Assembly (NCBI GenBank): GCA_050248995.1
Contig: JBFWRI010000008.1
Span: 3,214 to 67,213 of the forward strand
Source: Bdellovibrionales bacterium
Lineage (GTDB): Bacteria; Pseudomonadota; Alphaproteobacteria; JAIXQD01
Direction of reading: 5' to 3'
DNA: 64,000 nucleotides
The first letter of the stretch is position 1. Each line of letters starts with the position of its first letter. The position numbers were made by a program, and so were the translations under genes. Positions 23,161-53,169 of the stretch are shown one piece after another. A model generated the notes under the pieces. It was not told the origin of the DNA. It saw only the letters and a list, made by a program, of their open reading frames with translations, and did no database searches.

Positions 23161-24633
23161 TTAGAACGACGGGCGCACGGTGCCCCAGTCGAAGCTCTTT
23201 TCGCGGCCTGTTACGCCGTTGCGATCAGCTTGCAGTTTCAGCGTAAACTGGACAAAGAAGCGATCGGTGTCGTTAAACGGCGATCCATCGGCGGCGTTGA
23301 AGGAACCGAAGCCTGTATCCATCGTAACCCAGCTGCCGAGTTCCTGTTTATAGGTGACATTCCATTCGTCACCATAATCAGCGTCGTTGGTTTCTGCGCC
23401 AAAGTCATGCCATTCAAAGCGCAGCTTGGCGTCGTTGAAAAGGTTGCAGGTCGGCCAAATATCATCGACCTTATAGCCGAAGCTGACAGAACGGTCGACC
23501 AGACCCTCAGGGATGATGACGCCAGTAGTGATGGCATCGGTCAGCCCGTTGTGGCGGCTTAGGCCGGTATTGCTGGCCCACGGCGTCGTGACGGACGTGG
23601 TGTTGTCCCCCTCGAACACTTCATATCCGAACTGTGTGAACAGGCGGCCTGCCATAAAGTTCGGCGTGTACCACAGGCCGGGCTTCGCCATGTAGTAGTT
23701 GAGGCTGTAGTCGTTCGGGTTGGTACCGGCATCGGTCTGACGTGCATATGACAGGTCTAGCTTGAATGCAAATGGATCCAGACCCTTGTCCAGCAGGTTC
23801 AGCGGCAGGTCTGTCTTGGTGCGCAGGCCGTATGTGTTCGAGCTGAGGAAGTTTTCATCATCCATATCTACGATATAGCCAAATGCGCTTGCCCGTGTGT
23901 ATGGGATAAGGCCGGTGCCGAAGTTGAACAGGTGTGAATCGCTGTTCTGGATACCATCGGCGTTTTCATGACCAATGTGATTGCGACGCGCATCTACATA
24001 TGAATAGCGGAAGTCGACGGCCTGACCGAAGGACAGGCTGCCGTAGGCGGCATCATAATTGCTGCGGTTTTGGCGCCAGTCGGCAGCACCGATCCAGCGG
24101 CCATCGTCAAAATTGAGTGTCTGGCGGCCAACGCGGGTCTCAAATAGCGTGCCGTGCGGGCCCTTCAGCACGTCAATATTGCTGAGATCGAATTCGCGGA
24201 CATAGCCGATGTAGGCTTCACTGACTTCCATCGTCGCGGGGTCGAGGATAGTGGAGCGGGTACCGCCGAGGCTATTAACGCCGTTGGCGTATCTGTCGCC
24301 AAAAGGCACTATAACGCTTTCCACAGCACCGCGAGCATACAGGCCGCGCACTGGCAGGGTGGTTATGCCGAGCTTGGCGCCGAGAGTATTGGCATCAGAA
24401 CCGAGCAATCCTTCCTGCTCGGCATTTTCATAACGGGCACGCGCTTCAAGGTCGACCTTTAGTTCGGTAAGAGAGCGCAGGATGTCGGTGTTGCGCAATT
24501 CTTCAGCCGAGAAGGTGGTGACGGGCACAGGTGTATCGCTAATCGTTTGATGCCGGGCAGGGGCTGCATAAGCGGGGGTTGCGGCCAGCGATGTAAGTAC
24601 TATTAGGGTAGTGGCGAGGAATTGTTTGCTCAT
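23161..24633 (-). CDS. outer-membrane beta-barrel protein, alginate-export/AlgE-like porin family (paralogue 1, 490 aa)
   Basis: Signal peptide ending PAYA; C-terminal aromatic residue (PSF). Motifs ARARYEN and GRQTLNFDDGRWIGAADWRQNRSNYD resemble the alginate-export barrel signature as I recall it. Confidence 0.6.
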   Translation of the reverse strand: MSKQFLATTLIVLTSLAATPAYAAPARHQTISDTPVPVTTFSAEELRNTDILRSLTELKVDLEARARYENAEQEGLLGSDANTLGAKLGITTLPVRGLYARGAVESVIVPFGDRYANGVNSLGGTRSTILDPATMEVSEAYIGYVREFDLSNIDVLKGPHGTLFETRVGRQTLNFDDGRWIGAADWRQNRSNYDAAYGSLSFGQAVDFRYSYVDARRNHIGHENADGIQNSDSHLFNFGTGLIPYTRASAFGYIVDMDDENFLSSNTYGLRTKTDLPLNLLDKGLDPFAFKLDLSYARQTDAGTNPNDYSLNYYMAKPGLWYTPNFMAGRLFTQFGYEVFEGDNTTSVTTPWASNTGLSRHNGLTDAITTGVIIPEGLVDRSVSFGYKVDDIWPTCNLFNDAKLRFEWHDFGAETNDADYGDEWNVTYKQELGSWVTMDTGFGSFNAADGSPFNDTDRFFVQFTLKLQADRNGVTGREKSFDWGTVRPSF

Positions 24634-24723
24634 TATGGTCTCCCTGAAAAAATGCTGGTTTGACGCTACGATTTGGATAGTGGGCCGTCAATCTGGAAAA
24701 GCGCCGTTCCTCAGGGAGCTAAA

Positions 24724-24756
24724 GAAAAACCCCGCCGGTGAGGGCGGGGTTTTCTT
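24724..24756. terminator. rho-independent terminator, hairpin identical to 23089-23124
   Basis: aaaaaccccgccggtgagggcggggtttt, downstream (minus strand) of the second porin gene. Confidence 0.8.
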
Positions 24757-24781
24757 AGCTTTTCGCTAAATCAGGCGGAGA

Positions 24782-26002
24782 TTAGATCTTCGCGCTGACT
24801 TCGACGATGAACTTATCCGTATCGGCGCCGAAGGTATCAGCGTCATACGAGAAGAAGTATACACCGGCATTGTAGTGCTTGCCGAAGTCCTTGTTCAGAC
24901 CGACATTCCACTCGGTTCCGAGATCGGCGCCGCCGTTCTCAGCCGTGAAGTCATGCCATTCTGCACAGATGTTCAGGCCGTCAACCCATGGGTTGACCTG
25001 AGCAACTTCAACGTGAGCGCCGACGTACAGGTCTTCAAGACCGACGCCGCCGTTCGACAGGCCGATAACATCAGCACCGCCGTTGAACTTGTGTGCATCC
25101 GAGAACGGAGCCACGATGCCGTTGACGCCATCGGCTTCAGCAACTTCATAGCCAACCTTGGCTGTGAAGCTCTTGTAGCCTACGCCGCCTTCAAGGGCAT
25201 AGTAGTTCAGGTCGTAGCTGGCAGCATTGTCACCAGCATCTTCCTGATTGGCCCATTCAGCCGAGTACAGAGCGCGCCATGCGTTGTCGATGGCGTATTC
25301 ACCCGCACCGCGGACACCCCAGGTGGTGCTGCCTTGAGCGGCGATTTCATCGCTGTCAAGGAAGTAGCCGTAACCTGAAACCGTCAGGAACTTCAGCAGG
25401 TCGGTGCTGACGTTCAGCAGGTGGCTGTCATGCTCGACAGTACCTGTTGTCGCTTCGCTGCCGATGTTGGTGTTCAGCTGGCCAACGTAAGCGTAAGTGG
25501 CTGTGACACCCTTAAGCGCTTTGGTTTGCAACAGAACAGCATCATAGCTGGTGTGGTTCTGACGCCATGTGTCCGAACCAACCCAACGGCCGTTGTCCAT
25601 GTTTTCCAGCGTCTGACGACCGGCACGCAGGGTGCTGTCGAAGTTGCTGTATTGCAGGAAGGCCTGGTTGACTTCGGCTGTTTCCGGATCGGCGACCGTT
25701 GATTGGCCGACCTTGCCGTTGACAGTGTCGTTGTAGTCTTCGTTGAGGATGCCTGACACACCTTCGAATTCGACCATACCGCTTACGCCGTAGAAGTCGC
25801 CGGTGGTGTAGCCAAGACGTGCGCCAGCCGTAAAGGCATTGGCGTCATCCAGTGCGGTGGTGTCAACGTTTTCATAACGAACGCGTGCATCCCCCGACAC
25901 TTTACCTTCCGTGATCGCCTTGGTGAAATCGGTACCGGCGAACGCGGGAGCAGCGGCAACAAGCAGAACGCCCGCAGCAGCCATTACTAGTGTTTTGTTC
26001 AT
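24782..26002 (-). CDS. outer-membrane beta-barrel protein, same family (paralogue 2, 406 aa)
   Basis: ATG 26002 (MNKTLVMAAAGVLLVAAAPAFA) preceded by GGAG. Shares ARVRYEN and GRQTLENMDNGRWVGSDTWRQNHTSYD with paralogue 1. Confidence 0.6.
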   Translation of the reverse strand: MNKTLVMAAAGVLLVAAAPAFAGTDFTKAITEGKVSGDARVRYENVDTTALDDANAFTAGARLGYTTGDFYGVSGMVEFEGVSGILNEDYNDTVNGKVGQSTVADPETAEVNQAFLQYSNFDSTLRAGRQTLENMDNGRWVGSDTWRQNHTSYDAVLLQTKALKGVTATYAYVGQLNTNIGSEATTGTVEHDSHLLNVSTDLLKFLTVSGYGYFLDSDEIAAQGSTTWGVRGAGEYAIDNAWRALYSAEWANQEDAGDNAASYDLNYYALEGGVGYKSFTAKVGYEVAEADGVNGIVAPFSDAHKFNGGADVIGLSNGGVGLEDLYVGAHVEVAQVNPWVDGLNICAEWHDFTAENGGADLGTEWNVGLNKDFGKHYNAGVYFFSYDADTFGADTDKFIVEVSAKI

Positions 26003-26234
26003 GTAAAACTCCACAGTTGGTGAACGGACCAAATTTACGGGCGTGGTTAGAGTCGGTCAATCAACTGCGGATTCATGCAACTTTTCGTGTGATATTCCTG
26101 CCACGATACGCCTGGGGCCAAGTCTGTGGGTTATTCTGAATTCGCAAGCAAATGTATGCACCTAGAGCCACATATTGAAGCATCCGTTTTGTTAACGGTC
26201 CTTTCAAACATTGTTAACAATGCCTTAAGAATCA

Positions 26235-26317
26235 TTCCGGACCTTTAATTAATTCTTCAAATTAAGGGGTTACTCTGGTTCCCGGGAAATGCCTGTTTTT
26301 TGGGGGCGTAAGAGGAA
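26235..26317 (+). promoter_or_regulatory. conserved promoter/leader box, copy 1 (diverged)
   Basis: TTCCGG-N4-TTTAAT-N34-GGGAAATGCCTG-T6G5, then AAGAGG and the ATG. Confidence 0.5.
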
Positions 26318-28264
26318 ATGAGTAGCTGTCGTCACCACGCATTCGCTTGTGCGCAGGCATTCTGCCTGCTGTTGGCGCTTGTGTGCGTGATATCGCATCC
26401 TGCTGCCGCCCGTGAGGGGGGCAACACCAACGCGCCCGGTCTTGATGTCAGTAAAGTACAGGATAACGTCACGTCGGGCATGCATGTGACGCGCGTGGCG
26501 GGCACTGTTGAGGGCGCCGCTATCGTTGCTGGCGCCAGTGACGTATTGCTAAGCGCCCATGGCAGTGACCGCTACATTGATAATCTGTCCGGTAACAAGA
26601 TGCTGGTTCCGTTCCGCACCGTTGGTGAAATGACCTCATTCTTCAATGGTGTTAGCACGTCGCAGTTCCGCTTTGACTTTTACCGTCCGCAAACCACGCA
26701 GACGGTTGACTACCAGGATGGTGTGTCGGATGTCGCCAATCTGGTATTAGGCCAGTCGACAGAACAAATTGTTACACTGCCTGCGGCGCGCGTTGATACG
26801 CGCAGTGACAACGCCTTCAGCGCCTCGCGCGAAGTACGCCGCAGCCAGGACCTAAATATGGAGCGCAGTGATTGCCGCCGTCCGTACAACCCTTCAACCG
26901 GCCTCGAAGATATGACACAGCCGGCCAATGTCTGCAATGAACATAACTGGGTTGAAACCGTCACCGCCATTTTCACATACAACCCGACGCTGAGGAACAG
27001 CAGCAACCAATCGATTGACAGCCCGAGCCGCAGCGTGCTGTCGACTTCAGCTCGCAGTCTTGCCAGTTCGCTGACCCACCAGTGGTCGCTCAGCTGGGAT
27101 AATTCGGGCAACGCGCCTGCGGTCAGCTATCCTGACCCGCGCGCCTGTCCGCCAAGCTATACGCACGGACAACTTTATTGGGATGTCGCTTCAACTGGCA
27201 ACAGCCGCTCGGCGACAGCTGCAGAACTGTCCGCACTGGGTACGAACGGCGGCATGTGCCCCGAAGGCGTTGAAAGCGCAACGCGTACATGGGATGTCGA
27301 GCGCCGTTACCAGTGTTATGACGCACAATCCTTCCCGCAATCCACCACACGGGATGTGAACGTTGCCTATATCGACGTTGTGTGTAAGGAGCCGGCGGAC
27401 GAAGACGGCACCTGCGGCACGGCGTATGAATTCTACTTCGACCGTTCAACCCCGCCGCCTGCGGCCACCAACCGCACGCTGTGTGCAACCGGCGTAGCCA
27501 CGGCACCCGTGCGTGTGAACGCCGTTACATGGGGCTGGCAGTGCGAAGGCACGGAAACTTCGGCATCGTGCACGGCCATTCGCACCGGCGCTTATCAGTC
27601 CGTTTACTCCGATTGTCGCCCGCCAAACCATGAAACCAATGCGACGATGACTGCACAGCAATGGCAGCAAAGCGGCAGTTACAGGCAATACGTCTGCAAC
27701 GTTGACCGCAACCTGCCGACGAATTCGTACCTGACCCAGTATCAGGCCATCAATTCTGCCGCTGCGCCGAAAAGCTACCCGAGCAACCAGGCTGCGCTGT
27801 ATTCATGCCTGAAGGGAACGAACAATCAGATGCGCTATGTTCTGGGCGGCCGCACGGCCGGTGATGACTGGCACAACGCCAATTACAGAAACTGGGCGCC
27901 GCCTGGATTCCATCGTAATGCTACAGACTATCATCAGTTCTATCTGACCGGCAGCGCCAATGAGTGCGAAGGCTGCGTGGTGCTCCAGATGGTCTATTGC
28001 ACGGACGAGCCGGATTATCCGACCACATGCCCGGCGGCGACAGGATTGTTCTGGTACAACACGCCCTTCCAGCCGCCGTGTGAACCGGAAGTAGAGCCGA
28101 CCTATCATTATGACGGTTCACTGCCAGCAGGTACGCAGTTTGAAAGACGTGCCCTGGGCGACAGCGTGTATATGTGCGGCATGTACGGCCGCTGGACTTA
28201 CGCCAGCCAGCAAGGGAATTATGCGTCGAATAAGCTGGAACAGGAAAACCAAGTTTGCCAGTAG
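26318..28264 (+). CDS. secreted Cys-rich protein, array member 1 (648 aa)
   Basis: Signal peptide ending HPAAA. Diverged half-module GASDVLLSAHGSDRYIDNLSGNKMLVPFRTVGEMTSFFNG aligns with the module of members 2-5. Many Cys residues. CG...LC...WGWQC...SC module at aa 364-420. Confidence 0.7.
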   Translation: MSSCRHHAFACAQAFCLLLALVCVISHPAAAREGGNTNAPGLDVSKVQDNVTSGMHVTRVAGTVEGAAIVAGASDVLLSAHGSDRYIDNLSGNKMLVPFRTVGEMTSFFNGVSTSQFRFDFYRPQTTQTVDYQDGVSDVANLVLGQSTEQIVTLPAARVDTRSDNAFSASREVRRSQDLNMERSDCRRPYNPSTGLEDMTQPANVCNEHNWVETVTAIFTYNPTLRNSSNQSIDSPSRSVLSTSARSLASSLTHQWSLSWDNSGNAPAVSYPDPRACPPSYTHGQLYWDVASTGNSRSATAAELSALGTNGGMCPEGVESATRTWDVERRYQCYDAQSFPQSTTRDVNVAYIDVVCKEPADEDGTCGTAYEFYFDRSTPPPAATNRTLCATGVATAPVRVNAVTWGWQCEGTETSASCTAIRTGAYQSVYSDCRPPNHETNATMTAQQWQQSGSYRQYVCNVDRNLPTNSYLTQYQAINSAAAPKSYPSNQAALYSCLKGTNNQMRYVLGGRTAGDDWHNANYRNWAPPGFHRNATDYHQFYLTGSANECEGCVVLQMVYCTDEPDYPTTCPAATGLFWYNTPFQPPCEPEVEPTYHYDGSLPAGTQFERRALGDSVYMCGMYGRWTYASQQGNYASNKLEQENQVCQ

Positions 28265-28296
28265 AGCTGCCGGGTCTTTGTATAAATATAATTTAA

Positions 28297-28391
28297 AATC
28301 AATACCTTATTATATTCCGGTCTTTTAACGGTTTGTTTTGGTCTGCAGTATAGCCTGACTGTGGGAACTGCCTGTATTTGGGGGGCAATTA
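28297..28391 (+). promoter_or_regulatory. conserved promoter/leader box, copy 2
   Basis: ATCAAT ... TTCCGG-N4-TTTAAC-N33-GGGAACTGCCTG-tattt-GGGGGGCA-N5-GTG. Nearly identical to copy 3 over about 60 nt. Confidence 0.6.
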
Positions 28392-30398
28392 GTGACTCGC
28401 GCTTTCGCACGACCGATGTGGCTTAGGTACTGTCTTCTGGCGGTACTGCTGCTGTGCGCCAGCTTTGCATCAACGGCAGACGCGCGCAGCTGGGACACCT
28501 ATGGCTTTCGCGACAATGAATTAGAGCCGCGCGACCCAATCATTTATCCGGACGATACTTATACGCCGCCTGTGCAAGAGCCCGAACCAACGCCGACACC
28601 GACTCCTGAGCCAGAGCCGACACCAATGCCGACGCAGGATACAGGTGGGGTCATTCCTTCTGTCAGTGAACTTCCACCGCTGGATGAAATTGTCGGCGAC
28701 GGCGCGCAAACAGCCGTTGATTTCGCAGAGGATGTTCTGGATTCCGTCGAAGATATTGCTACGGCCATTCGTGATATGCTGCGCGCGGATGACCGCATTG
28801 ACATTTCAGAGGGTGGTGCGCTGTCGGTCGGTGCACAAAACGTCCTTGTGTACGAACATGGTATTTGCCGCTGGCTGGATAACGAAAGCGTCGGCGCCGA
28901 GCTGCTCGTTCCTTACAGAACGAGTGCCGAATGGCAGGCCTTCCTTGATAACGCGCCCGCCGGCGTGACGCGTGCGGGCTGCTGCCCCGCTGCGACAGCT
29001 ATGCTGACATCATCGGATGGGCAATCGGTCTCATTTGAACTGGATATCGGCCGTGACGGTGCGCTGAACTCGCTGGGCCGCCGCATGCTGAGCCATACGT
29101 TTACGCTGGGTGCTGGCGGCACGGAAACGGTGCGCCAGATTTATGTCTGCACAGGTGATGCATGGGTTGGAGAAGGTGTTGTGCGCACCAGCGACCCTGG
29201 CGACGAAACAACCGAACCGACCACTGAGGAAAATGATCCTGTAACACCTGATGGCCCGGCTGACGTTTGCTATCCGGCGTCGTCACGCGATGTGAAGGTG
29301 ACATGGACGGGTCAATGGCGTCGTGGATGGAGCGGCAACGCCACGTTCACCAAGAGCGGTATCGGCAGGGTGCAGCAAGTCTATATGAATGCTGATGGTA
29401 CCATTACCAGCAACGGTAGTGGCGACCGCAGTACGGCGATCTTCAATCTTGAAGAACCAATCGCCGATGCTGACGTGAAGGTTACAGCCGTATACGGTAG
29501 CTATAGCGGTGACCTGAACGGCGGCCCTGGCCCCTTCAGCCGCGGCGAAGCCAAGGTTGCAGAGTTCCATATTGCTTCAGGGCAGAATATCAACCTGAGC
29601 AATACGCCAGCCACCGGCATCTTCTATTCGCGCCAGCGCATGGGCCGTCCGTTCATGATGACGAACAACGCAATCTATATGCCGTCGTATGATAGTTCGC
29701 CGAACCTGAAGAGTCTGACGGTTGAATATACAAAGGACACAGGTGCGGCCGAAGTCGATCCGAGCCTGATCCCAGCCTGTACACCGATGCCTGAGAATTT
29801 CCAAGTTGGTATCCATGCCTATGACGGCGACAGGTTCGAAGTTGAATTCGACCTTAAAACCGGCACGGCGCAGCTGATCTTCCTGAACTACACACGTCGC
29901 GGCACTGAATATGGCGTCGGTAAGGGATGGTATGCCAGCATTCCGACGCTGAGCTATGATGACTTGTGCGAGGGCAGCTCGACAATGGATATCGGCTCGG
30001 CCAATGCGCGGTTGTGGATTTCGGGCGATAGTGTGGACGGATCGGTTGACTACATCGTCACCCAAAAACCGACGTGCGAGAACGGGCTTGTCGGCCGCGT
30101 AGCGGTTGATGACACAACGAACGGCTGGGGTAAATATCGCCACCCGGTCAGTGGCCTGTTTACGTTCCCGCTGACACGTGCGTGCCAGTGTTCAAATGCA
30201 TGCACAGCAGACCAGGAGATCTGGGGTGGAGCATGTGTGTCGAAATGCCCAACCGGCCAAGTGCGCAATACTTCGACAGGCGTATGTTATACACCGGTCC
30301 CAGTTGAATCTAACCCCTGCGAGTCGAAGCCTTGGCTTTGTGAGGATGGTGGCCGCGTTGATAGTGATGGGGAAAACATCTATCAAAACCTGCAGTAA
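28392..30398 (+). CDS. secreted Cys-rich protein, array member 2 (668 aa)
   Basis: GTG start 6 nt after the G6 tract. Signal peptide ending STADA. Pro/Thr/Glu linker. Conserved module at aa 137-264. EGF-like Cys-rich C-terminus ending in the KPWLCED motif. Confidence 0.7.
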   Translation: MTRAFARPMWLRYCLLAVLLLCASFASTADARSWDTYGFRDNELEPRDPIIYPDDTYTPPVQEPEPTPTPTPEPEPTPMPTQDTGGVIPSVSELPPLDEIVGDGAQTAVDFAEDVLDSVEDIATAIRDMLRADDRIDISEGGALSVGAQNVLVYEHGICRWLDNESVGAELLVPYRTSAEWQAFLDNAPAGVTRAGCCPAATAMLTSSDGQSVSFELDIGRDGALNSLGRRMLSHTFTLGAGGTETVRQIYVCTGDAWVGEGVVRTSDPGDETTEPTTEENDPVTPDGPADVCYPASSRDVKVTWTGQWRRGWSGNATFTKSGIGRVQQVYMNADGTITSNGSGDRSTAIFNLEEPIADADVKVTAVYGSYSGDLNGGPGPFSRGEAKVAEFHIASGQNINLSNTPATGIFYSRQRMGRPFMMTNNAIYMPSYDSSPNLKSLTVEYTKDTGAAEVDPSLIPACTPMPENFQVGIHAYDGDRFEVEFDLKTGTAQLIFLNYTRRGTEYGVGKGWYASIPTLSYDDLCEGSSTMDIGSANARLWISGDSVDGSVDYIVTQKPTCENGLVGRVAVDDTTNGWGKYRHPVSGLFTFPLTRACQCSNACTADQEIWGGACVSKCPTGQVRNTSTGVCYTPVPVESNPCESKPWLCEDGGRVDSDGENIYQNLQ

Positions 30399-30489
30399 CA
30401 TACGCTTACACAGTCAAGTCAGCCTGCTGCCATAGGTTGTTTTGAATCACAGAATTATGAAATATCATTAAGTATCAAGCAATTAGTCG

Positions 30490-30566
30490 TTCCGACTCTT
30501 TAACGGTTTGTTTTGGTCTGTAGTATAGCCTGACTGTGGGAAATGCCTGATTGGGGGGCAATAGAC
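30490..30566 (+). promoter_or_regulatory. conserved promoter/leader box, copy 3
   Basis: TTCCG-N5-TTTAAC-N33-GGGAAATGCCTG-att-GGGGGGCA-N6-GTG. Confidence 0.6.
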
Positions 30567-32255
30567 GTGTCGGGGCTGACAGTAATAAAAATAATGTGTT
30601 TGCGCTGCATGACGCTCGCTGCACTTTGTGTAGTGCTTGCTGCCCCTGCTTATGCCACCCCGCCGCGCGAATTCGAGCCGATTGATCCCTATGACAGACC
30701 GTTCCCCGAGATTCCCGATATTCAGCTGCCGTCCACCGACGGTGTGGGCAACACGGTTGGCGGTACCGCTACCGATGCTAACGAACAGGTCGTGGAGCCT
30801 GTTGTTGAAACTGTCAAAGATCTACTGACGGACACCAGCCAGATTGCTTCAGCAGCTGCTACTGCCCTGCGCCGTGATTTAATTGCAGCACTGGGTGTTG
30901 ACATCGCAAATGGTGGCGTTCTGCCTTTTGGCGTCAGCAATGCGCTGGTTGACCGCCATGGCATGTGCCGCTGGTTGGATAATGCCAGCAGTGTCGATTA
31001 CTTTGTGCCTCTTCGCACTGCTGCGGAATGGGCCGCTTTCGTTAACAACGCGCCACCCAACGTTACGCGCGCTGCCTGCTGTCCGGCGCGCAGTGTTACG
31101 CTGGTGGCGTCCGACGGGCAGTCGGTCAGCTTCAACCTTGATACGGGGCGCGAAGGCGCAACATCCGAACTGGGCGTGCAATCGCTCAGTCATGTCTTTA
31201 CATTGGCCGATTCATCGACCGAAACCGTCAGCGAAGTTTATGTCTGCCAGGGCGAAGTATGGACGGGCCAAGGCGTGACACGCGATGGCGAGGAGACAGA
31301 AGAAGTCCCTGGCGATTGGGCAAACGCTGGCTGTGGTGGCGCAATTTCGACAGGCTTTAACTGTGTATCAGCAGAACCTGTATTCACGACTTGTCCAGCG
31401 GGTACGATGGCGCAGGAATCGACCTTGCCGATGATGGATTATGACTGCCCCGGTGAAGACGGCTACATCCTTGCGCCAGTAGCAGGCCGCTGTGTAGCCG
31501 ATGCGTCATGCGCAGTGCCTGAAGAGCCCGAGGTGGTGGATGGCTGCTTTGTAGGTCAGGACCTGTTGTTTATTCAGGATGTGACGGGGTCGTACAAGGA
31601 CGATATTCCAAACCTGAATAGCGCCTTTAGCGCGCTGGCTACGGATCCGCGCGTTAGCGAGTGGGGCTTCGGGGTTATGACTTTCGGGCCTCAAAATGAC
31701 ACGCATAATAACTTTATGAGTATGGCAGATAGCAAGTTAGGCAGCTTCAGTTACCGCAAACTTCTGCAACCAAGCAAGTTGCGAGGCAATTCGAAGTCGC
31801 AGATGCAGGCCATGGAGTATGCGTTGAAGACTTATACAAGGACAAGCGGCCGCCTTGCTGTTGTATTGGCAACAGATGATGCTGACTTTGGTAACGATTT
31901 CCTGAGCAGCCGACTTCCTGCAGCCACCCTGCTGCGCGCAGCCAATGCCGAGCTATTCGTGCTGCAAGGTACGCTACCGGGTAAAGAAACCGATGTGCGC
32001 CTCTTTTATCAGAAGTTCATGAACGACAACCAGATCAACGGCCGCATCGTGCCGCTGACGGCGAACTCGGCGAACCTTTACGACAAGATCATCGAAACCG
32101 TGTGCGATGGATCGGCGCCACCGCCACCACCGCCGCCGCCGCTGAATACGACGCCTGACCCTGATACCGGGACCAGCATATGCGATATGAAGCCGTGGAT
32201 GTGCGAAGACCTGGGTAGCGTTGCCGACCGATTTAGTGGTTATTCTATCTACTAA
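30543..32255 (+). CDS. secreted protein, array member 3 (570 aa from ATG 30543): conserved module + Cys-rich linker + integrin-beta-like VWA domain
   Basis: By analogy with members 2 and 4 the real start is probably GTG 30567. Signal peptide ending APAYA. Module at aa 120-244. VWA-like region with DLLFIQDVTGSYKDD, WGFGVMTFG and AVVLATDD. Poly-Pro tract, then KPWMCED. Confidence 0.7.
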   Translation: MPDWGAIDVSGLTVIKIMCLRCMTLAALCVVLAAPAYATPPREFEPIDPYDRPFPEIPDIQLPSTDGVGNTVGGTATDANEQVVEPVVETVKDLLTDTSQIASAAATALRRDLIAALGVDIANGGVLPFGVSNALVDRHGMCRWLDNASSVDYFVPLRTAAEWAAFVNNAPPNVTRAACCPARSVTLVASDGQSVSFNLDTGREGATSELGVQSLSHVFTLADSSTETVSEVYVCQGEVWTGQGVTRDGEETEEVPGDWANAGCGGAISTGFNCVSAEPVFTTCPAGTMAQESTLPMMDYDCPGEDGYILAPVAGRCVADASCAVPEEPEVVDGCFVGQDLLFIQDVTGSYKDDIPNLNSAFSALATDPRVSEWGFGVMTFGPQNDTHNNFMSMADSKLGSFSYRKLLQPSKLRGNSKSQMQAMEYALKTYTRTSGRLAVVLATDDADFGNDFLSSRLPAATLLRAANAELFVLQGTLPGKETDVRLFYQKFMNDNQINGRIVPLTANSANLYDKIIETVCDGSAPPPPPPPPLNTTPDPDTGTSICDMKPWMCEDLGSVADRFSGYSIY

Positions 32256-32293
32256 TCAGTACAATACTATTATAAATCAATTAGTTATAATAT

Positions 32294-32371
32294 TTCCGGG
32301 TATTTAACATTTAATTTTATCTATCCCTGTATTCTCAGTATGGGAATTGCCTGTTTTTGGGGGGCATAGGG
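32294..32371 (+). promoter_or_regulatory. conserved promoter/leader box, copy 4
   Basis: TTCCGG-N4-TTTAAC-N33-GGGAATTGCCTG-ttttt-GGGGGGCA-N5-GTG. Confidence 0.6.
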
Positions 32372-34027
32372 GTGTTGGGTTTCAAGGCCATATCTGTAAC
32401 CGCGTTACGCTGCATGGCAGCAGCCTTCCTTTGCATGCTCGTTTTTGCGTTGCCCGCCCATGCAGTTGAACAGCCGGGCGGAGACGATCCGCTTGTGCGC
32501 AACAGCCTGCAGCAGGATCGTAATATGGATATCGGCAACGGCGGCGCCCTGAGTGCTGGCGCGCAGAACGTTCTGGTCGATAAGTGGGGCCAGTGCCGTT
32601 GGCTGGATAACGCCGATGACCAGATTTACCTTGTACCCTATCGCAGCAGTGCCGAGTGGGCCGCGTTCCTGAATAATGCTCCGTCACTGATTACGCGCGC
32701 CCGCTGCTGCCCAGCGCGGACCATCACGTTGTCGGCATCCGACGGACAGTCAGTGAACTTTGATATTGATACGGGCCGTGAAGGCGGTGCCGGAGTGCTG
32801 GGCGCACGGTCATTTAGTCATACCTTCACACTGGCCGATTCATCCACCGAGACTGTCAGTGAAGTCTATATCTGCCAGAACGAAGTATGGACCGGTCAGG
32901 GCCCGACTACGGTAACGACACCCGGCGATTGCGGCGCCTATAGCCATGGCGATACATGGTGGGTTGATGGTGCCACGGAACACACGGATACGGATATCGT
33001 TTGCCCGGACGGCCAGGCTGGTATTCACCGCGATTACTTCCAGATGCAAAATCAATATATCTGTAACAGCGGTTCATCGGACCCGACCGGAGTGACGCAA
33101 ACAGTTGATGTGGGTGGCGACGAGGATATCTGTCCGCCATCGACCGACTTTGACGAATTCGTTTTTGCCAGCAGCTGCGAAGCGGTGATGGGTGCCGTGA
33201 AGTCGTGTGTCAGCGATGGCACATCTTGCGTAACGCCAAAAAATGGCCCGGGCATCGTGCAACCGATGAATCGCGCATCGCACGATGGCATGTGGTGCAG
33301 TTCGATCGCCTCGCACGATACGGGCCTGGATGGTGCCAAGTCGGTATTCGATCTGGCGGATGTGATGAGCCGTGCGCCCGCGGGCCCTGTGCTGGTTATC
33401 TTGCCGGTTGACCCATGGGGCGGCCTGCGTACGAAGGAGTACGCCCACCATGTGGCGAGCCCGACAATGCCAAGTTACATTTATGATGTTGGATATCCTT
33501 CGCCTACGTACGGCGCTACGGGAAGCGTAGCGGCAATCAAGATGGTAATCACCGACCGCAACGTCAGTCAGTCGAAAACCATCACCCAGTCAACCGTGGC
33601 TCTGGTCAGCGGTCGTCCGGAAGACTTGTCGCAGAACATCACCATCAAGCTTAATTACGATGGCAGCACCAAGCAAATGGCGATCGAGTATGGCCGCAGC
33701 GGCCGCTGGATGAAGAACAACTTCACGCCGTGGCAGAGCCAGCTTGAGAAGGGTTGGGGTAACGGCAAGGTCTGGAGCGAAGTGCGCGTCATGGCGCCGG
33801 TGCGCCCTGTGTGTGGTGCCGGGTATTGCGGCAGCATCCCGCCCCTTGAGGCGCGTTGTGTCCTTGGCACGCCCAGCACAGTGACAACGTATAATATTCC
33901 GCCGGCCGAGCAGGTTCTGTTTGGCCCGACCGTTCGCCACACGTGGACGTGTATGGGCCCTGAGGGCGATACGGCGTCGTGCGTATCGCAGGATGGCGGC
34001 CTGTGCGGCATGAGCTTTGGTATGTAG
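32357..34027 (+). CDS. secreted Cys-rich protein, array member 4 (556 aa from TTG 32357; likely GTG 32372)
   Basis: Signal peptide ending LPAHA. Module at aa 58-182. C-terminal CG..C...WTC...SC module at aa 486-543. Confidence 0.7.
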   Translation: MGGIGVLGFKAISVTALRCMAAAFLCMLVFALPAHAVEQPGGDDPLVRNSLQQDRNMDIGNGGALSAGAQNVLVDKWGQCRWLDNADDQIYLVPYRSSAEWAAFLNNAPSLITRARCCPARTITLSASDGQSVNFDIDTGREGGAGVLGARSFSHTFTLADSSTETVSEVYICQNEVWTGQGPTTVTTPGDCGAYSHGDTWWVDGATEHTDTDIVCPDGQAGIHRDYFQMQNQYICNSGSSDPTGVTQTVDVGGDEDICPPSTDFDEFVFASSCEAVMGAVKSCVSDGTSCVTPKNGPGIVQPMNRASHDGMWCSSIASHDTGLDGAKSVFDLADVMSRAPAGPVLVILPVDPWGGLRTKEYAHHVASPTMPSYIYDVGYPSPTYGATGSVAAIKMVITDRNVSQSKTITQSTVALVSGRPEDLSQNITIKLNYDGSTKQMAIEYGRSGRWMKNNFTPWQSQLEKGWGNGKVWSEVRVMAPVRPVCGAGYCGSIPPLEARCVLGTPSTVTTYNIPPAEQVLFGPTVRHTWTCMGPEGDTASCVSQDGGLCGMSFGM

Positions 34028-34033
34028 GAAATC

Positions 34034-35038
34034 ATGAAGCGGTTCATGACACGGAAAAACATTATAGCTGTGCCCAACCTGTCTGGTGTGGCGTTACTGC
34101 TTCTGTACAGCATTTTTGTTGGTTCCATTGCGCACGCTCAGGAGCAGCAAGGGCTTTCTAATTACCCCGTACGCAATGATCTGCAACAAGACCGCAATAT
34201 GAGCATCAGCAACGGTGGTGCATTGAGCGTTGGTGCCCAGAACGTTCTGGTCGACCAATGGGGCCAGTGCCGCTGGCTGGATAACGCCGATAACAAGGTT
34301 TACCTTGTGCCCTACCGCAGCAGCACTGAATGGGCTGCGTTCCTGAATCACGCGCCTGCACTTATTACCCGTGCGCGATGCTGCCCGGCCCGCACCGTGA
34401 GTTTGACAGCATCAGACGGCCAGTCGGCGAGTTTTGATCTTGATACGGGCCGTGTCGGCGCAGGCAATATGCTGGGTGTACGTTCGCTAAGCCACGTCTT
34501 CACGTTGGCAGATGCGTCCACCGAGACCGTTAGCGAGATTTTCGTCTGCCAGGATGGTGTATGGACCGGGCAGGGTGTTGTGCGCGATGGCGAACCGGTT
34601 GAAGAGCCTGAAGTGCCTGAAACCCCCGATGAGCCGGTGCTGCCGGAAGAAGACCCACCGGTTATCGAGGCAGAAACCTGTGTGCCGACCAATGAGGAGT
34701 GGAATTTCTTTGGCTGGTATGAAAGCTGGGAAGGCGCCTGTGCTGAGCGCGTACGCGCCGCTGCTGAACTGGGATCACTGACGCCTGCAGAGAGGGTAGA
34801 GCTTGCCACCTATTCAGTTGGGCGCATCGTGCGGATGTTCATTGATCTGCCGCCGTGCCCTGCCGAAGGTGTTGCCATCAGTACCGGGGCCTGTATCACA
34901 CGCGTCACCGTCAGGGACTCGCGGACGATTGGCAACATGGGCCCGATGCCGTGGTATTGCTCGGTGAAAGTCAGGTCATGCAGCGGCCCGCCTGAGCTGC
35001 GTGCGTATGAGTCTCCCTTCATGGAACTGGCAGATTAA
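34034..35038 (+). CDS. secreted protein, array member 5 (334 aa)
   Basis: Starts 6 nt after member 4 and has no leader box of its own. Signal peptide ending SIAHA. Module at aa 57-181, closest to member 4. Confidence 0.7.
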   Translation: MKRFMTRKNIIAVPNLSGVALLLLYSIFVGSIAHAQEQQGLSNYPVRNDLQQDRNMSISNGGALSVGAQNVLVDQWGQCRWLDNADNKVYLVPYRSSTEWAAFLNHAPALITRARCCPARTVSLTASDGQSASFDLDTGRVGAGNMLGVRSLSHVFTLADASTETVSEIFVCQDGVWTGQGVVRDGEPVEEPEVPETPDEPVLPEEDPPVIEAETCVPTNEEWNFFGWYESWEGACAERVRAAAELGSLTPAERVELATYSVGRIVRMFIDLPPCPAEGVAISTGACITRVTVRDSRTIGNMGPMPWYCSVKVRSCSGPPELRAYESPFMELAD

Positions 35039-35053
35039 ATCTTGTGACAGAAA

Positions 35054-35088
35054 TAAAAAGGCCGGGAATTTCTTCCCGGCCTTTTTTG
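35054..35088. terminator. bidirectional rho-independent terminator
   Basis: A-run, stem GGCCGGGAA / TTCCCGGCC with loop TTTC, then T6. Lies between convergent array member 5 and nrdB. Confidence 0.85.
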
Positions 35089-35111
35089 TGTCTGGAGCGA
35101 CTACATAAACT

Positions 35112-36110
35112 TTAAAAAACCTCTTCCCATGTGCCTTGGGTGGCGGCCTTTGAATATTCGGTGGCGCGGGCTTCGAAGAAGTTGGCGTGTTCAACACCGT
35201 TCATCATCTCATCCATCCACGGCAGCGGATTCTTGTTGGTGCCATACAGCGGCTTCAGGCCTAGCTGGCCCAGGCGGCGGTCGGCGATGTAGCGGATGTA
35301 AGCCTTCACTTCGTCGCTGGTTAGACCTTCGATGCCACCCATTTCGAAGGCGAGGTCGATGAATGCATCTTCGTGTTCGACGATCGTGTCGCAGACTTCC
35401 AGCAGCGCCTGGTCTAGTTCAGGTCCCTGGATCTGCGGGTTTTCCTGAACGAAGGTCTTGAACAGGCGCATGATTGACTGGCAGTGCAGGGTTTCATCGC
35501 GCACTGACCAGGTGACAATCTGGCCCATACCCTTCATTTTACCGAAGCGCGGGAAGTTCATCAGGATCGCGAACGAAGCAAACAGCTGCAGGCCTTCGGT
35601 GAACGCGCCAAAAGCGGCCAGCGTTTTGGCGATTTCAAACGGGTTATCGACGCTGAAGGTGTGCATGTAATCGTACTTGTCCTTCATCTGCTTGTACTTC
35701 ATGAAGGCCGAGTATTCGGTTTCGGGCATGCCGATGGTGTCGAGCAGGTGGCTGTAGGCGGCCACATGCACGGTTTCCATGTTTGCGAACGCCGTCAGCA
35801 TCATGACGATCTCGGTCGGCTGGAATACCTGACTGTACTGCTTGTTGTAGCAGTTGTTCACTTCAACGTCGGCCTGCGTGAAGAAGCGGAAGATCTGGGT
35901 CAGCAGGTTGCGCTCGGCAGCGGTCAGCTTCTTTTGCCAGTCCTTGACGTCGTCTGTCATCGGCACTTCTTCCGGCAACCAGTGCAGCTGCTGCTGTTTC
36001 AGCCATGCTTCATAAGCCCACGGATACTTGAACGGCTTGTAAACCGGGTTCGGCGTCATCAGTTGGCAAAGGTGCTGGGTATCTTCCATCTTGGCGGCTG
36101 CAAATGTCAT
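35112..36110 (-). CDS. nrdB: class I ribonucleotide reductase, beta subunit
   Basis: Di-iron/tyrosyl motif ETVHVAAYSHL (E-x2-H-x3-Y). ATG 36110 has GGAG 9 nt upstream; the ORF extends to ATG 36125. Confidence 0.9.
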   Translation of the reverse strand: MTFAAAKMEDTQHLCQLMTPNPVYKPFKYPWAYEAWLKQQQLHWLPEEVPMTDDVKDWQKKLTAAERNLLTQIFRFFTQADVEVNNCYNKQYSQVFQPTEIVMMLTAFANMETVHVAAYSHLLDTIGMPETEYSAFMKYKQMKDKYDYMHTFSVDNPFEIAKTLAAFGAFTEGLQLFASFAILMNFPRFGKMKGMGQIVTWSVRDETLHCQSIMRLFKTFVQENPQIQGPELDQALLEVCDTIVEHEDAFIDLAFEMGGIEGLTSDEVKAYIRYIADRRLGQLGLKPLYGTNKNPLPWMDEMMNGVEHANFFEARATEYSKAATQGTWEEVF

Positions 36111-43575: not shown

Positions 43576-43784
43576 TGTTAACATGAACTATGGTGCATGC
43601 CCGTATGTGTTTGAGATGTTTTACTGTTCTTAAAAAGCCAAATTAACCAGCATGTTGGCACGTTTATCGCAAATCATTCGCGCGTATCTACGGCATTCGT
43701 ATGTTTGCAGTGGGTCGGTTTGCCGGATGGTCTGGCAAATAAAAAGGCGGAAGGAGTCCGCTGCAACCGTAAGGAGTACACTCT

Positions 43785-44606
43785 ATGGCTACCAATTCAA
43801 TCTCGCTTTCGGCTTCAGCACGGGCGAACCTGCTGTCGTTGAAAGACACCACCGATGCGCTTGCCCGCACCCAGAATCGTCTGGCCACCGGTAAGCGGGT
43901 CAACACCGCTATTGATGGCGCTTCGGCGTTCTTCAGCAGCCAGGGCTTCTTGAACCGTGCGAACGACTTCGCATCGGTTAAGGAAAACCTTGGTACCGCG
44001 CTGCAGACACTGAACGCGGTGTCAAACGCGATCGACGCGATTACCGCCGTCGTTCAGCAGGCACAAGGTATCACGGTTTCGGCGCTGAACACGACCGATG
44101 CGGACGAACGTACAGCGTTCGCCTCGCAGTTCAACGCGCTGCTGACCCAGATCAACAGCCTTGTTGCCGACGCGACCTTCAACGGTGTGAACCTGTTGTC
44201 GAGCGGTAACTTGACCGTCAACTTCAACGAAAGCACGGCTATCGAACTGACAGTCGCCGCGGTCAACACCTATGTTGGCTCGGGCGGTCTGAACATCGTG
44301 GCAGCTGCTACGGGTTGGTCAGGTGACGCGCAGATTAACGCCTCGGTGACCGACCTTTCGGCCGCCCTGTCGACCCTGCGTACAACGGCCTCGGGCTTCG
44401 GTAACAACGCGACGCTTATCCAAACGCGTCAAGACTTTACCGATACCCTTATCAACACGCTTCAGGTTGCTTCGGATAACCTGGTGCTGGCCGACGAAAA
44501 CGAGGAAGGCGCGAACCTTCAAGCCCTGCAGGCCCGCCTGCAGCTTGGTGTCGTGTCTCTCGGCATCTCAGGCCAACAGCTGCAAGCTATCTTGCGTCTG
44601 TTCTAA
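43785..44606 (+). CDS. flagellin (short, 273 aa, Caulobacter-type)
   Basis: N-terminal NLLSLKDTTDALARTQNRLATGKRVN and C-terminal EEGANLQALQARLQLGV ... LRLF conserved flagellin helices. AAGGAG upstream. Confidence 0.92.
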   Translation: MATNSISLSASARANLLSLKDTTDALARTQNRLATGKRVNTAIDGASAFFSSQGFLNRANDFASVKENLGTALQTLNAVSNAIDAITAVVQQAQGITVSALNTTDADERTAFASQFNALLTQINSLVADATFNGVNLLSSGNLTVNFNESTAIELTVAAVNTYVGSGGLNIVAAATGWSGDAQINASVTDLSAALSTLRTTASGFGNNATLIQTRQDFTDTLINTLQVASDNLVLADENEEGANLQALQARLQLGVVSLGISGQQLQAILRLF

Positions 44607-49524: not shown

Positions 49525-51966
<2,442 letters not shown>

Positions 51967-53145: not shown

Positions 53146-53169
53146 AAGCTGACTGTAGGGGAAAGCGGC

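What the first reader, a model, noticed from the sequence alone, without database searches (positions are those of the whole stretch)
26235..32371. An ~80-100-nt promoter/5'-leader box repeated in front of four of the five array genes, with a variable T(n)G(n) homopolymer junction
Seen in sequence: copies at 26235-26317, 28297-28391, 30490-30566 and 32294-32371 share the architecture TTCCGG-N3-5-TTTAA(C/T)-N33-34-GGGAA(A/C/T)TGCCTG-(T-rich 3-6 nt)-G5-6-CA-N5-7-start codon. Copies 2 and 3 are almost identical over about 60 nt (ctttaacggtttgttttggtctg[c/t]agtatagcctgactgtgggaa). Length differences between copies are not multiples of three, and the box falls in different frames relative to the CDS, so conservation is at the nucleotide/RNA level, not peptide level. 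The T/G runs differ between copies (T6G5, tatttG6, attG6, T5G6). In copy 1 the box ATG (26289) opens a 10-codon uORF whose TGA overlaps the main ATG. In copy 3 the same ATG is in frame with the CDS, and in copies 2 and 4 it is CTG/TTG. Inference: TTAACG-N18-TATAGC may be a sigma-70-like promoter that places the transcription start near GGGAA. That would make GGGAANTGCCTG...G6 a shared short 5' UTR acting as a translational operator or an SD-like G-tract. The homopolymer junction could allow slipped-strand expression switching.
Basis: partly seen in the sequence, partly recalled or inferred. Interest (0 to 1): 0.7.

Follow-up and report, generated by a model that had tools for sequence, protein, structure and literature searches.

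The report
Shared promoter-leader box of paralogous genes
Four neighbouring genes for related secreted proteins each keep their own copy of a roughly 100-base control region (a probable activator-dependent promoter plus a short, highly conserved mRNA leader that contains the ribosome-binding site); this is an ordinary kind of element and there is no sign that it works as a slippage switch.

Summary
Four copies share a rigid layout, and none is expected by chance. The layout is WAWCAA-N4-TTA, N4-7, TTCCG-N4-TTTAAY, N21, TAnnCT, N6-7, GGGAAnTGCCTG, a T/A-rich stretch plus G5-6 (11, 11, 9 and 11 nt), then 6-11 nt to the start codon.

The genes g1-g4 are old paralogues: four-fold synonymous sites among the g2-g5 domains are only 22-49% identical. 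Yet the 25-nt GGGAA...G-run segment is 80-92% identical in every pair, so it is under selection.

My reading is that each box is a self-contained promoter plus leader. TAnnCT is the -10 element. TTCC-N6-TTAAY would then be centred near -41.5, where an activator would sit. The G-run is the Shine-Dalgarno sequence, 6-8 nt before the GTG starts of g2-g4, and it can pair into a 5-bp hairpin (UGCCU/GGGCA).

Homologues in other alphaproteobacterial contigs carry consensus CtrA boxes (TTAA-N7-TTAA) in front of a conserved -10-like element and a G-rich Shine-Dalgarno sequence. This makes CtrA a candidate activator, but the window boxes deviate from that consensus.

Slipped-strand switching is not supported. 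The runs are only 5-6 nt, and three of the four T/G blocks have the same total length, so they differ by substitution.

Verdict: a new member of a known kind, of modest interest.

The parts
26215..26227 (+). Box 1 upstream AT-rich element TAACAATGCCTTA. It is one mismatch from the IHF consensus. It lies inside an exact TTAA-N7-TTAA site at 26214-26228.
26235..26249 (+). Box 1 TTCCG-N4-TTTAAT (TTCC-N6-TTAA direct-repeat-like site, predicted -48 to -34).
26271..26276 (+). Box 1 predicted -10 element TACTCT.
   Evidence: Invariant TA..CT columns; geometry.
26284..26306 (+). Box 1 leader core GGGAAATGCCTG + T6G5, with predicted hairpin UGCCU/GGGCG. g1 has a separate GAGGA just before its ATG at 26318.
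26318..28264 (+). g1, a 648-aa secreted cysteine-rich protein and a very divergent paralogue (ATG start).
28297..28309 (+). Box 2 AATCAATACCTTA, an exact match to the IHF consensus WATCAANNNNTTR.
28315..28329 (+). Box 2 TTCCG-N4-TTTAAC.
28351..28356 (+). Box 2 predicted -10 element TAGCCT.
28363..28385 (+). Box 2 leader core GGGAACTGCCTG + TATTTG6. The G6 run is the Shine-Dalgarno sequence, 6 nt before the GTG at 28392.
28392..30398 (+). g2, 668 aa, GTG start. It carries the shared 135-aa N-terminal domain.
30473..30485 (+). Box 3 TATCAAGCAATTA, an exact match to the IHF consensus.
30490..30504 (+). Box 3 TTCCG-N4-TTTAAC.
30526..30531 (+). Box 3 predicted -10 element TAGCCT.
30538..30558 (+). 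Box 3 leader core GGGAAATGCCTG + ATTG6. The G6 run lies 8 nt before the GTG at 30567.
30567..32255 (+). g3, 562 aa from the GTG start. An in-frame ATG at 30543 lies inside the leader core.
32275..32287 (+). Box 4 AATCAATTAGTTA, an exact match to the IHF consensus.
32294..32308 (+). Box 4 TTCCG-N4-TTTAAC.
32330..32335 (+). Box 4 predicted -10 element TATTCT.
32342..32364 (+). Box 4 leader core GGGAATTGCCTG + T5G6. The G6 run lies 7 nt before the GTG at 32372.
32372..34027 (+). g4, 551 aa, GTG start.
34034..35038 (+). g5, 334 aa, with no box. It starts 6 nt after the g4 stop and is presumably co-transcribed with g4.
35055..35086 (.). 14-bp hairpin flanked by an A-run and a T-run. It looks like a bidirectional terminator that closes the array against the convergent ribonucleotide reductase genes.
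   Evidence: (I15)

Best explanation
Each box is a self-contained promoter plus short 5' leader. It was duplicated together with the paralogous genes and has been kept by selection, so g1, g2, g3 and g4(+g5) are separately but coordinately expressed.

Proposed anatomy (inferred from conservation and spacing; there is no transcript data):
- TAnnCT is the -10 element.
- Transcription starts at or within 2 nt of the first G of GGGAA.
- TTCC-N6-TTAAY then spans about -48 to -35, centred near -41.5. It is the site of a dimeric activator that replaces a proper -35 contact. A CtrA-type response regulator is the leading candidate.
- WAWCAA-N4-TTA at about -66 to -54 is an AT-rich architectural site (IHF-like) or UP-like site.
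- The 29-34-nt leader begins GGGAAnUGCCUG, followed by a U-rich stretch and G5-6.
- In g2-g4 the G-run is the Shine-Dalgarno sequence. It can pair with UGCCU into a 5-bp hairpin. That hairpin could protect the 5' end of the mRNA or damp translation initiation.

The differences in T/G run length are fixed differences between paralogues, not a switch.
For: Shown:
- There are four copies with identical spacing of five conserved blocks, while the sequence between the blocks has diverged.
- Four-fold synonymous sites of the paralogous domains are saturated (22-49% identity). The 25-nt leader core is 80-92% identical in all six pairs. The flanking upstream DNA and the first 90 nt of coding sequence sit at the roughly 45-60% alignment background.
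- T-12, A-11 and T-7 of the proposed -10 element are invariant.
- The G-run lies 6-8 nt from GTG in g2-g4. The signal peptides need those GTG starts to have a charged N-region.
- The UGCCU/GGGCA hairpin is predicted in the consensus and in three of the four single-sequence folds.

Comparative:
- Eleven homologous genes on other contigs have TTAA-N7-TTAA exactly (7 of 11), with N6 spacing (1 of 11) or with one mismatch (2 of 11). The site lies within about 65 nt upstream of the start. Per-locus chance is 0.0004-0.02.
- In these loci a -10-like TAnATT follows inside a conserved GCGATACATTC, then a short leader and GGGGG or GGAGG before ATG.
- Box 1 has an exact TTAA-N7-TTAA 7 nt upstream of its TTCCG.

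Literature:
- The full CtrA site is TTAA-N7-TTAA, the half-site is TTAA, and an ungapped form is TTAACCAT.
- Activating sites lie at the -35 region.
- N6-spaced sites are functional.
- Rhodobacter sphaeroides CtrA-dependent promoters have an invariant A at -11 and 12-33 nt between transcription start and start codon (PMC6180460, PMC11264516).

Host context fits an alphaproteobacterium:
- The only hit among the genome representatives scanned is a Caulobacteraceae MAG.
- A gcrA gene lies next to one homologue.
- The flagellin gene in the window has a sigma-54-type promoter.
Against: - There are no transcript data. The transcription start and the -10 register (TAnnCT, or TATAGC 2 nt upstream) are inferred.
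- The window boxes do not match the CtrA consensus. The upstream half is TTCC, not TTAA, and the spacing is N6.
- A profile of the homologues' promoters does not detect the window boxes at all.
- The geometry also differs. The site is centred at about -31 in the homologues and about -41.5 in the window.
- The hairpin has no covariation, because all pairs are invariant. The leader folds are no more stable than shuffles (z-scores -0.3 to +1.2).
- In g1 the G-run is 11 nt from the ATG and a separate GAGGA is present. Shine-Dalgarno function alone therefore does not explain conservation of the core.
- The near-identity of boxes 2 and 3 (92% in the promoter part) probably reflects a short gene-conversion tract rather than selection.
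Confidence: 0.62

Rival explanations
1. The whole 80-100-nt box is transcribed from a promoter further upstream, or by read-through from the preceding gene. It then acts as a structured cis-regulatory RNA, such as a riboswitch-like leader or a protein or sRNA operator.
For: - There is no convincing terminator after g1 or g3, so read-through transcripts would contain the boxes.
- The 25-nt core is far more conserved than a Shine-Dalgarno sequence needs to be, also in g1 where it is not the Shine-Dalgarno sequence.
- RNAalifold pairs TTCC with GGAA and UGCCU with GGGCA.
Against: - There is no covariation in any pair, and only 11 pairs are predicted over about 110 nt.
- No Rfam family matches, even at E<=1.
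- The sequence between the conserved blocks is unconstrained, but its length is fixed. That is the signature of DNA-protein spacing rather than of RNA helices.
- Homologous loci conserve promoter-like DNA motifs, not a structure.
Confidence: 0.12
2. GGGAAC is the -35 element (GGAAC) of an ECF-sigma promoter. The G-run lies in the spacer. Transcription starts near the annotated GTG, and translation starts at the downstream ATGs chosen by the automatic gene caller.
For: - GGAAC is the typical ECF -35 core.
- The gene calls on the Logan contig start g2, g3 and g4 at downstream ATGs (660, 548 and 530 aa).
- Box 1 has CGTAA 17 nt after GGAAA.
Against: - The base after GGGAA is the one variable position of the core (A, C, A, T).
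- No conserved CGT-type -10 element lies 16-17 nt downstream in boxes 2-4 (CAAT, ATAG, CATA).
- The downstream ATGs have no Shine-Dalgarno sequence and would give signal peptides without a charged N-region.
- The G-run sits at ideal Shine-Dalgarno spacing from GTG.
- Most homologues have no GGAAC.
Confidence: 0.06
3. The T(n)G(n) junction is a slipped-strand phase-variation switch that turns individual array genes on and off.
For: - The homopolymer runs differ between copies.
- The array encodes variable secreted proteins, a gene class that is often phase-variable.
Against: - The runs are only 5-6 nt. From general knowledge, known switches use about 7 or more, usually 8 or more.
- The total T/G block is 11 nt in three copies (T6G5, TATTTG6, T5G6), so they differ by substitution and not by length.
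- The Logan assembly of the same locus is identical over 10.5 kb, although it may come from the same sample.
- Homologues elsewhere have ordinary GGGGGAG or GGAGGG Shine-Dalgarno sequences.
Confidence: 0.03
4. The similarity is only a leftover of tandem duplication or gene conversion, with no function of its own.
For: - Boxes 2 and 3 are 92% identical in the promoter part, including the otherwise unconstrained spacer. This suggests a recent short conversion tract.
Against: - Synonymous sites of the paralogues are saturated.
- g1 shares only about 20% protein identity with the others, yet its leader core is 80-88% identical to theirs.
- Conservation is block-wise, with fixed spacing and diverged fillers.
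Confidence: 0.05

Closest known systems
CtrA-dependent promoters of Alphaproteobacteria (Caulobacter crescentus class II flagellar genes, ccrM, pilA, ctrA P2; Rhodobacter sphaeroides fla2)
   Same: - A TTAA-type direct-repeat site overlaps or replaces the -35 element.
- N6 spacing variants are known to be functional.
- A at -11 is conserved.
- Leaders are very short.
- Homologues of the array genes in other alphaproteobacterial contigs carry exact TTAA-N7-TTAA(C) and, in one locus, an N6-spaced site ending in TTAACCAT (PMC6180460, PMC11264516).
   Different: - In the window boxes the upstream half is an invariant TTCC(G), not TTAA.
- Only the TTAAC half-site is canonical.
- The site is centred about 10 bp further upstream than in the homologues.
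- Binding was not tested, and ctrA is not in the window.
Class II activator-dependent sigma-70 promoters (activator centred at -41.5, weak or absent -35)
   Same: - A recognisable -10 element with T-12, A-11 and T-7.
- No -35 match at 17 +/- 1 bp.
- A conserved bipartite site predicted at -48 to -35.
- Rigid spacing.
   Different: The position is computed from a predicted transcription start, not a measured one.
5'-terminal stem-loops and Shine-Dalgarno-sequestering hairpins in short leaders (ompA-type stabilisers, fourU/ROSE-type thermometers)
   Same: A small hairpin (UGCCU/GGGCA, about -6 to -8 kcal/mol) lies close to the predicted 5' end. Its 3' arm is part of the G-rich Shine-Dalgarno sequence, and its loop is U-rich.
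   Different: - The stem has only 5 bp and shows no covariation.
- It is not more stable than shuffled sequence.
- It has no similarity to any Rfam family.
Homopolymer-tract phase variation in promoters or leaders (Neisseria porA/opc poly-G or poly-C, Bordetella fim poly-C)
   Same: Homopolymer T and G runs lie between the promoter and the start codon of genes for surface or secreted proteins.
   Different: - The runs are 5-6 nt.
- The block has constant total length in three of four copies.
- No heterogeneity was seen.
- The runs lie in the leader and Shine-Dalgarno sequence, not in the -35/-10 spacer.

Membership tests
CtrA binding site / CtrA-activated promoter | Sequence TTAA-N7-TTAA (or the N6 variant, or the TTAACCAT half-site) | tested here: inconclusive
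   - The boxes have TTCC-N6-TTAA(C/T). The downstream half is exact in 4 of 4 copies (TTAAC in 3 of 4). The upstream half matches 2 of 4 bases.
- Box 1 has an additional exact TTAA-N7-TTAA at 26214-26228.
- Homologous genes elsewhere: exact in 7 of 11, N6 in 1, one mismatch in 2.
- A profile of those promoters does not hit the boxes.
CtrA binding site / CtrA-activated promoter | Site located at or overlapping the -35 region of the regulated promoter | tested here: inconclusive
   With the predicted -10 element TAnnCT, the TTAA half lies at -38 to -35 and the whole site at -48 to -35. The transcription start is not measured.
CtrA binding site / CtrA-activated promoter | Binding by CtrA~P and CtrA-dependent expression | not testable with these tools
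   This needs ChIP, EMSA or depletion experiments. No ctrA gene lies in the 64-kb window.
Sigma-70 consensus promoter | -35 TTGACA and -10 TATAAT hexamers 16-18 bp apart | tested here: not met
   - The consensus scan (at least 9 of 12 matches) finds no site at any box.
- Only the -10-like TA..CT is invariant.
IHF binding site | Match to WATCAANNNNTTR in AT-rich context | tested here: met
   The only three exact matches in 64 kb are at boxes 2-4. Box 1 has one mismatch. Binding is not tested, and a sequence match alone is weak evidence.
Phase-variable simple-sequence contingency locus | Long homopolymer or short tandem repeat (typically 7-8 units or more) whose length varies within populations | tested here: not met
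   - The runs are T2-6 and G5-6.
- The T/G block is 11 nt in three copies.
- An independent assembly record (Logan SRR27751816) is identical.
ECF-sigma promoter | GGAAC -35 element and a conserved CGT-type -10 element 16-17 bp downstream | tested here: not met
   The C of GGAAC is the variable base of the core (A, C, A, T). No conserved -10 element lies at the required distance.
Known cis-regulatory RNA family (Rfam 15) | Covariance-model match | tested here: not met
   There is no match at the boxes at E<=1 in 24000-36000. There is none at the gathering score in the whole window.

The most novel reading that the evidence does not exclude
The invariant 25-nt leader GGGAAnUGCCUG-U(n)-G(5-6)-CA is more than a transcription start plus a Shine-Dalgarno sequence. 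It would be a dedicated post-transcriptional operator, bound by an unknown RNA-binding protein or sRNA or acting as a temperature- or ligand-sensitive Shine-Dalgarno hairpin. It would co-regulate a lineage-specific array of secreted, cysteine-rich proteins. Their shared N-terminal domain has no Pfam family and no PDB fold match. In other Alphaproteobacteria the family appears to be wired to the CtrA cell-cycle regulator.
Probability: 0.15. Interest if true: 0.5.

Novelty: new member of a known kind. Interest (0 to 1): 0.3.

Why it matters
The result explains how a tandem array of orphan secreted-protein genes is expressed. There is one promoter per gene for g1-g4, g5 rides on g4, and all share the same control logic.

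It also gives a testable regulatory link. Relatives of these genes in other Alphaproteobacteria sit behind textbook CtrA boxes. This uncharacterised protein family may therefore belong to the cell-cycle and polar-development regulon.

Finally, it removes a tempting but unsupported phase-variation reading.

The element itself is of a familiar kind. It matters mostly for annotation: correct GTG starts, promoter positions and operon structure.

Tried and rejected
1. Rfam at permissive thresholds over the locus and at gathering scores over the window found nothing at the boxes.
2. Sigma-54 reading. The GG/GC spacing is off by one in boxes 2 and 3, and the element is absent in box 4. A true sigma-54-like site exists only upstream of the flagellin gene.
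3. ECF reading of GGGAAC. The -10 element is not conserved and the C is variable.
4. uORF or peptide reading of the NTG inside the core. It gives a 10-codon uORF in copy 1, is in frame with the coding sequence in copies 2 and 3, and is out of frame in copy 4. This is inconsistent.
5. Terminator reading of the T-run. No adequate upstream stem exists.
6. CcrM GANTC sites. They are present only in boxes 1 and 3 (read).
7. A profile of the homologues' promoter searched against the window gave no hit at the boxes. A box profile searched against all loci found only the four copies.
8. Search for closer relatives that could show box conservation:
   - The word-based protein search found only the window's own proteins.
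   - The genome scan found one distant locus.
   - The metagenome scan found two very distant loci.
   - No plasmid homologues were found.
   - The one syntenic genome (GCA_041447075.1: porin, three array genes, ribonucleotide reductase) could not be read because no DNA was served.
9. Structure search of the shared N-terminal domain. The AlphaFold2 model is confident (pLDDT 92), but there is no PDB match with E<0.1.
10. Comparison with the Logan assembly for tract heterogeneity. The sequences are identical, so this is uninformative.

Full report
**1. Observation**

The region 26.0-35.1 kb holds five co-oriented genes:
- g1, 26318-28264
- g2, 28392-30398
- g3, 30567-32255
- g4, 32372-34027
- g5, 34034-35038

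The array lies between a divergent porin-like gene (24782-26032, minus strand) and convergent ribonucleotide reductase genes.

g2-g5 share a 135-aa N-terminal domain at 62-76% identity and have unrelated C-termini. g1 is only about 20% identical to the others.

- In a MAFFT alignment of the four copies, 50 columns are invariant.
- The repeat finder recovers them as families D5 and D9.
- The composite pattern TTCCG-N3-6-TTTAA-N30-38-GGGAA hits only these four places, against 0.00 expected.
- GGGAANTGCCTG is exact only there.
- TTCC-N6-TTAAY occurs only there, against 0.34 expected.
- An nhmmer profile of the box finds no fifth copy in the window or in any fetched locus.

g5 has no box and starts 6 nt after the g4 stop.

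**2. Refined anatomy**

The spacing is the same in all four copies:

TTCCG - N4 - TTTAAY - N21 - TAnnCT - N6 (N7 in copy 1) - GGGAAnTGCCTG - (T/A)nG5-6 - 6 to 11 nt - start codon

- The T/G block is 11 nt in copies 1, 2 and 4 and 9 nt in copy 3.
- The filler between TTTAAY and TAnnCT is unrelated between copies 1, 2/3 and 4, but it always has the same length.
- The box also extends upstream. The IHF consensus WATCAANNNNTTR occurs three times in the whole window, each time 4-6 nt upstream of the TTCCG of boxes 2-4.
- Box 1 has TAACAATGCCTTA at the homologous place. This is at the same time an exact TTAA-N7-TTAA.

**3. Is the conservation meaningful?**

- Four-fold degenerate third positions of identical codons in the shared domain are only 22-49% identical between paralogues. 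They are saturated.
- The 50-60 nt upstream of the boxes and the first 90 nt of the coding sequences align at 43-60%, which is the background level of the aligner.
- The 25-nt segment from GGGAA to the end of the G-run (+CA/CG) is 80-92% identical in all six pairs, including pairs with g1.
- The promoter part is 53-61% identical overall. Its identity is concentrated in the blocks named above.
- The exception is boxes 2 and 3, which are 92% identical there, including the otherwise free spacer.

I conclude that the blocks and their spacing are under purifying selection. The near-identity of boxes 2 and 3 is probably a short gene-conversion tract.

**4. What the blocks are (inference)**

*The -10 element.* TA..CT keeps T-12, A-11 and T-7 of a -10 hexamer in all copies (TACTCT, TAGCCT, TAGCCT, TATTCT).

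*The transcription start.* Six or seven bases further on lies the first G of GGGAA, so the start is predicted at GGGAA.

*The -35 region.* No -35 hexamer lies 17 +/- 1 bp upstream of TA..CT, and the simple sigma-70 scan reports nothing at the boxes. Instead TTTAAY occupies -39 to -34 and TTCC occupies -48 to -45. TTCC-N6-TTAA is therefore a 14-bp bipartite site centred near -41.5. That is the position of class II activators (established knowledge).

*The start codons.* The Logan gene calls start g2-g4 at downstream ATGs. Three points favour the GTG starts:
- Each GTG is preceded at 6-8 nt by the G6 run.
- The GTG starts give signal peptides with a charged N-region and include the shared LR(Y)C motif.
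- The downstream ATGs have no Shine-Dalgarno sequence.

The G-run is therefore best read as the Shine-Dalgarno sequence of g2-g4. In g1 it lies 11 nt upstream of the ATG and a separate GAGGA is present. Shine-Dalgarno function alone thus does not explain conservation of the core.

*The hairpin.* Folding predicts a 5-bp hairpin UGCCU/GGG(G)CA with a U-rich loop, in the consensus and in three of the four single-sequence folds (about -6 to -8 kcal/mol). Its 3' arm is part of the G-run. All of its pairs are invariant, so covariation cannot test it. The leaders are not more stable than shuffles. A role in 5'-end protection or in damping initiation is plausible but unproven.

**5. Evidence from relatives**

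The protein family is rare.
- The word-indexed search returned only the window's own proteins.
- An exhaustive profile search of 1.8 billion representatives found 459 proteins at E<=0.001. About two dozen of them match most or all of the domain.
- The domain has no Pfam or NCBIfam model.
- A confident AlphaFold2 model (pLDDT 92) has no PDB fold match.

One NCBI genome (GCA_041447075.1) has a syntenic array: a porin-like (Alginate_exp) gene, three family genes, then the ribonucleotide reductase genes. ETF-QO lies a few genes upstream, as in the window. Its DNA could not be retrieved.

I obtained upstream DNA for eleven homologous genes on ten other contigs: L002 (two genes), L003, L004, L006, L007, L008, L010, L011, L012 and L013. 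Their architecture is strikingly uniform:

TTAA-N7-TTAA(C/T) - N5 - GCGATAcATTC (containing TAnATT) - 6 to about 40 nt - GGGGG or GGAGG - 3 to 11 nt - ATG

- TTAA-N7-TTAA is exact in seven genes.
- It is N6-spaced in L003, where it reads TTAA-N6-TTAACCAT.
- It is one mismatch off in L007 and L011.
- It is absent in L012.
- Dinucleotide-preserving shuffles of each 120-nt upstream region contain such a site with a frequency of only 0.0004-0.02.

TTAA-N7-TTAA, the TTAA half-site and TTAACCAT are the recognised CtrA motifs. According to PMC6180460 and PMC11264516:
- activating sites lie at the -35 region;
- N6-spaced sites are functional (Rhodobacter sphaeroides flgB2p and fliI2p, Caulobacter ctrA P2);
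- R. sphaeroides CtrA-dependent promoters have an invariant A at -11 and 12-33 nt between transcription start and start codon.

The hosts look alphaproteobacterial:
- L002 is from a Caulobacteraceae MAG.
- L012 carries gcrA next to the homologue.
- The window has a sigma-54-type promoter in front of its flagellin gene, as in Caulobacter.

By regulog logic, CtrA is the leading candidate for the activator of the window boxes. Three caveats keep me from filing the boxes as CtrA sites:
- The window boxes deviate from the consensus (invariant TTCC instead of TTAA, with N6 spacing).
- They sit about one helical turn further upstream than in the homologues.
- They are not detected by a profile of the homologues' promoters.

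I put the CtrA sub-claim at roughly 0.35-0.4.

**6. Slipped-strand switching**

- The runs are 5-6 nt. This is below the lengths at which homopolymers slip at useful rates in known contingency loci (general knowledge).
- T6G5, TATTTG6 and T5G6 all total 11 nt, so they differ by substitution and not by length. Only copy 3 is 2 nt shorter.
- The only other assembly of the locus (Logan SRR27751816) is identical over 10,570 bp. It may derive from the same sample, so this is weak evidence.
- Homologues elsewhere have ordinary G-rich Shine-Dalgarno sequences.

I consider this reading very unlikely.

**7. Other rivals**

*ECF promoter with GGAAC as the -35 element.* This fails because the critical C is the one variable base of the core, and no -10 element is conserved 16-17 bp downstream.

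*Long structured leader RNA.* This is not excluded, because read-through from upstream genes is possible. It has no covariation and no Rfam support. The pattern of fixed spacing with free filler sequence is what DNA-protein contacts produce.

*Neutral leftover of duplication.* This is contradicted by the saturated synonymous sites.

**8. Verdict**

The finding is real and its core interpretation is essentially right: a promoter plus a short leader, a start near GGGAA, and the G-tract as the Shine-Dalgarno sequence.

The -35 reading should be replaced by an activator site, with CtrA as a candidate. The phase-variation idea should be dropped.

The element is a new member of a known kind. The most interesting residue is the 25-nt invariant leader, whose conservation exceeds what a transcription start and a Shine-Dalgarno sequence require. 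The second is the apparent wiring of an uncharacterised secreted-protein family to CtrA boxes across Alphaproteobacteria.

Noticed in passing
window 28779-29183, 30876-31280, 32504-32908, 34178-34582 (shared N-terminal domain of g2-g5): This is an uncharacterised secreted-protein domain of 135 aa with conserved C-R-W-x-D-N and C-C-P motifs. It has no Pfam or NCBIfam model. The AlphaFold2 model has pLDDT 92 and no PDB fold match. There are about 459 relatives among 1.8 billion representatives. Some relatives are fused to TSP1, He_PIG or glycine-rich C-terminal modules.
   Followed up: partly
L002 5930-5977 and 9768-9842; L003, L004, L007, L010, L013 upstream regions: A near-identical promoter motif TTAA-N7-TTAAC-N5-GCGATACATTC precedes family members from unrelated metagenomes, although the proteins are only about 40-50% identical. 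No paper in the library contains this 11-mer in a bacterial context.
   Followed up: partly
window 43656-43670, upstream of flagellin gene 43785-44606: A sigma-54-type promoter TGGCAC-N5-TCGC is the only match in the window. It lies about 115 nt upstream of a Flagellin_N gene. This suggests a Caulobacter-like flagellar hierarchy.
   Followed up: partly
window 8908-8922 and 8989-9000: An exact TTAA-N7-TTAACC site in an intergenic region is followed 67 nt later by GGGAAATCCCTG, one mismatch from the box core. Only a 34-codon ORF lies downstream, so this is possibly a small gene or sRNA.
   Followed up: no
window 15819-15833: TTAACCATTTGTTAA combines a canonical CtrA full site with the TTAACCAT half-site. 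It lies in the intergenic region upstream of a mutY-like gene (16036-17346).
   Followed up: no
window 49525-57004: gyrB, recF and dnaA lie here, with an unscanned ORF at 54018-55190 between recF and dnaA where dnaN would be expected. The window is therefore close to the chromosomal replication origin.
   Followed up: no
window 28324-28374 vs 30499-30549: Boxes 2 and 3 differ at only 2 of about 52 positions, while the adjacent coding and upstream DNA is at background identity. This looks like a short gene-conversion tract between two promoters.
   Followed up: partly
GCA_041447075.1 (no DNA served): This genome has a syntenic locus: ETF-QO, alkaline phosphatase, Alginate_exp porin, three family genes (two with TSP1_ADAMTS repeats), then the small and large ribonucleotide reductase subunits. 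It is the best place to test box conservation.
   Followed up: no
window 35055-35086: A perfect 14-bp inverted repeat AAAAAGGCCGGGAA/TTCCCGGCCTTTTT lies between g5 and the convergent ribonucleotide reductase small-subunit gene. It is a likely bidirectional terminator.
   Followed up: no
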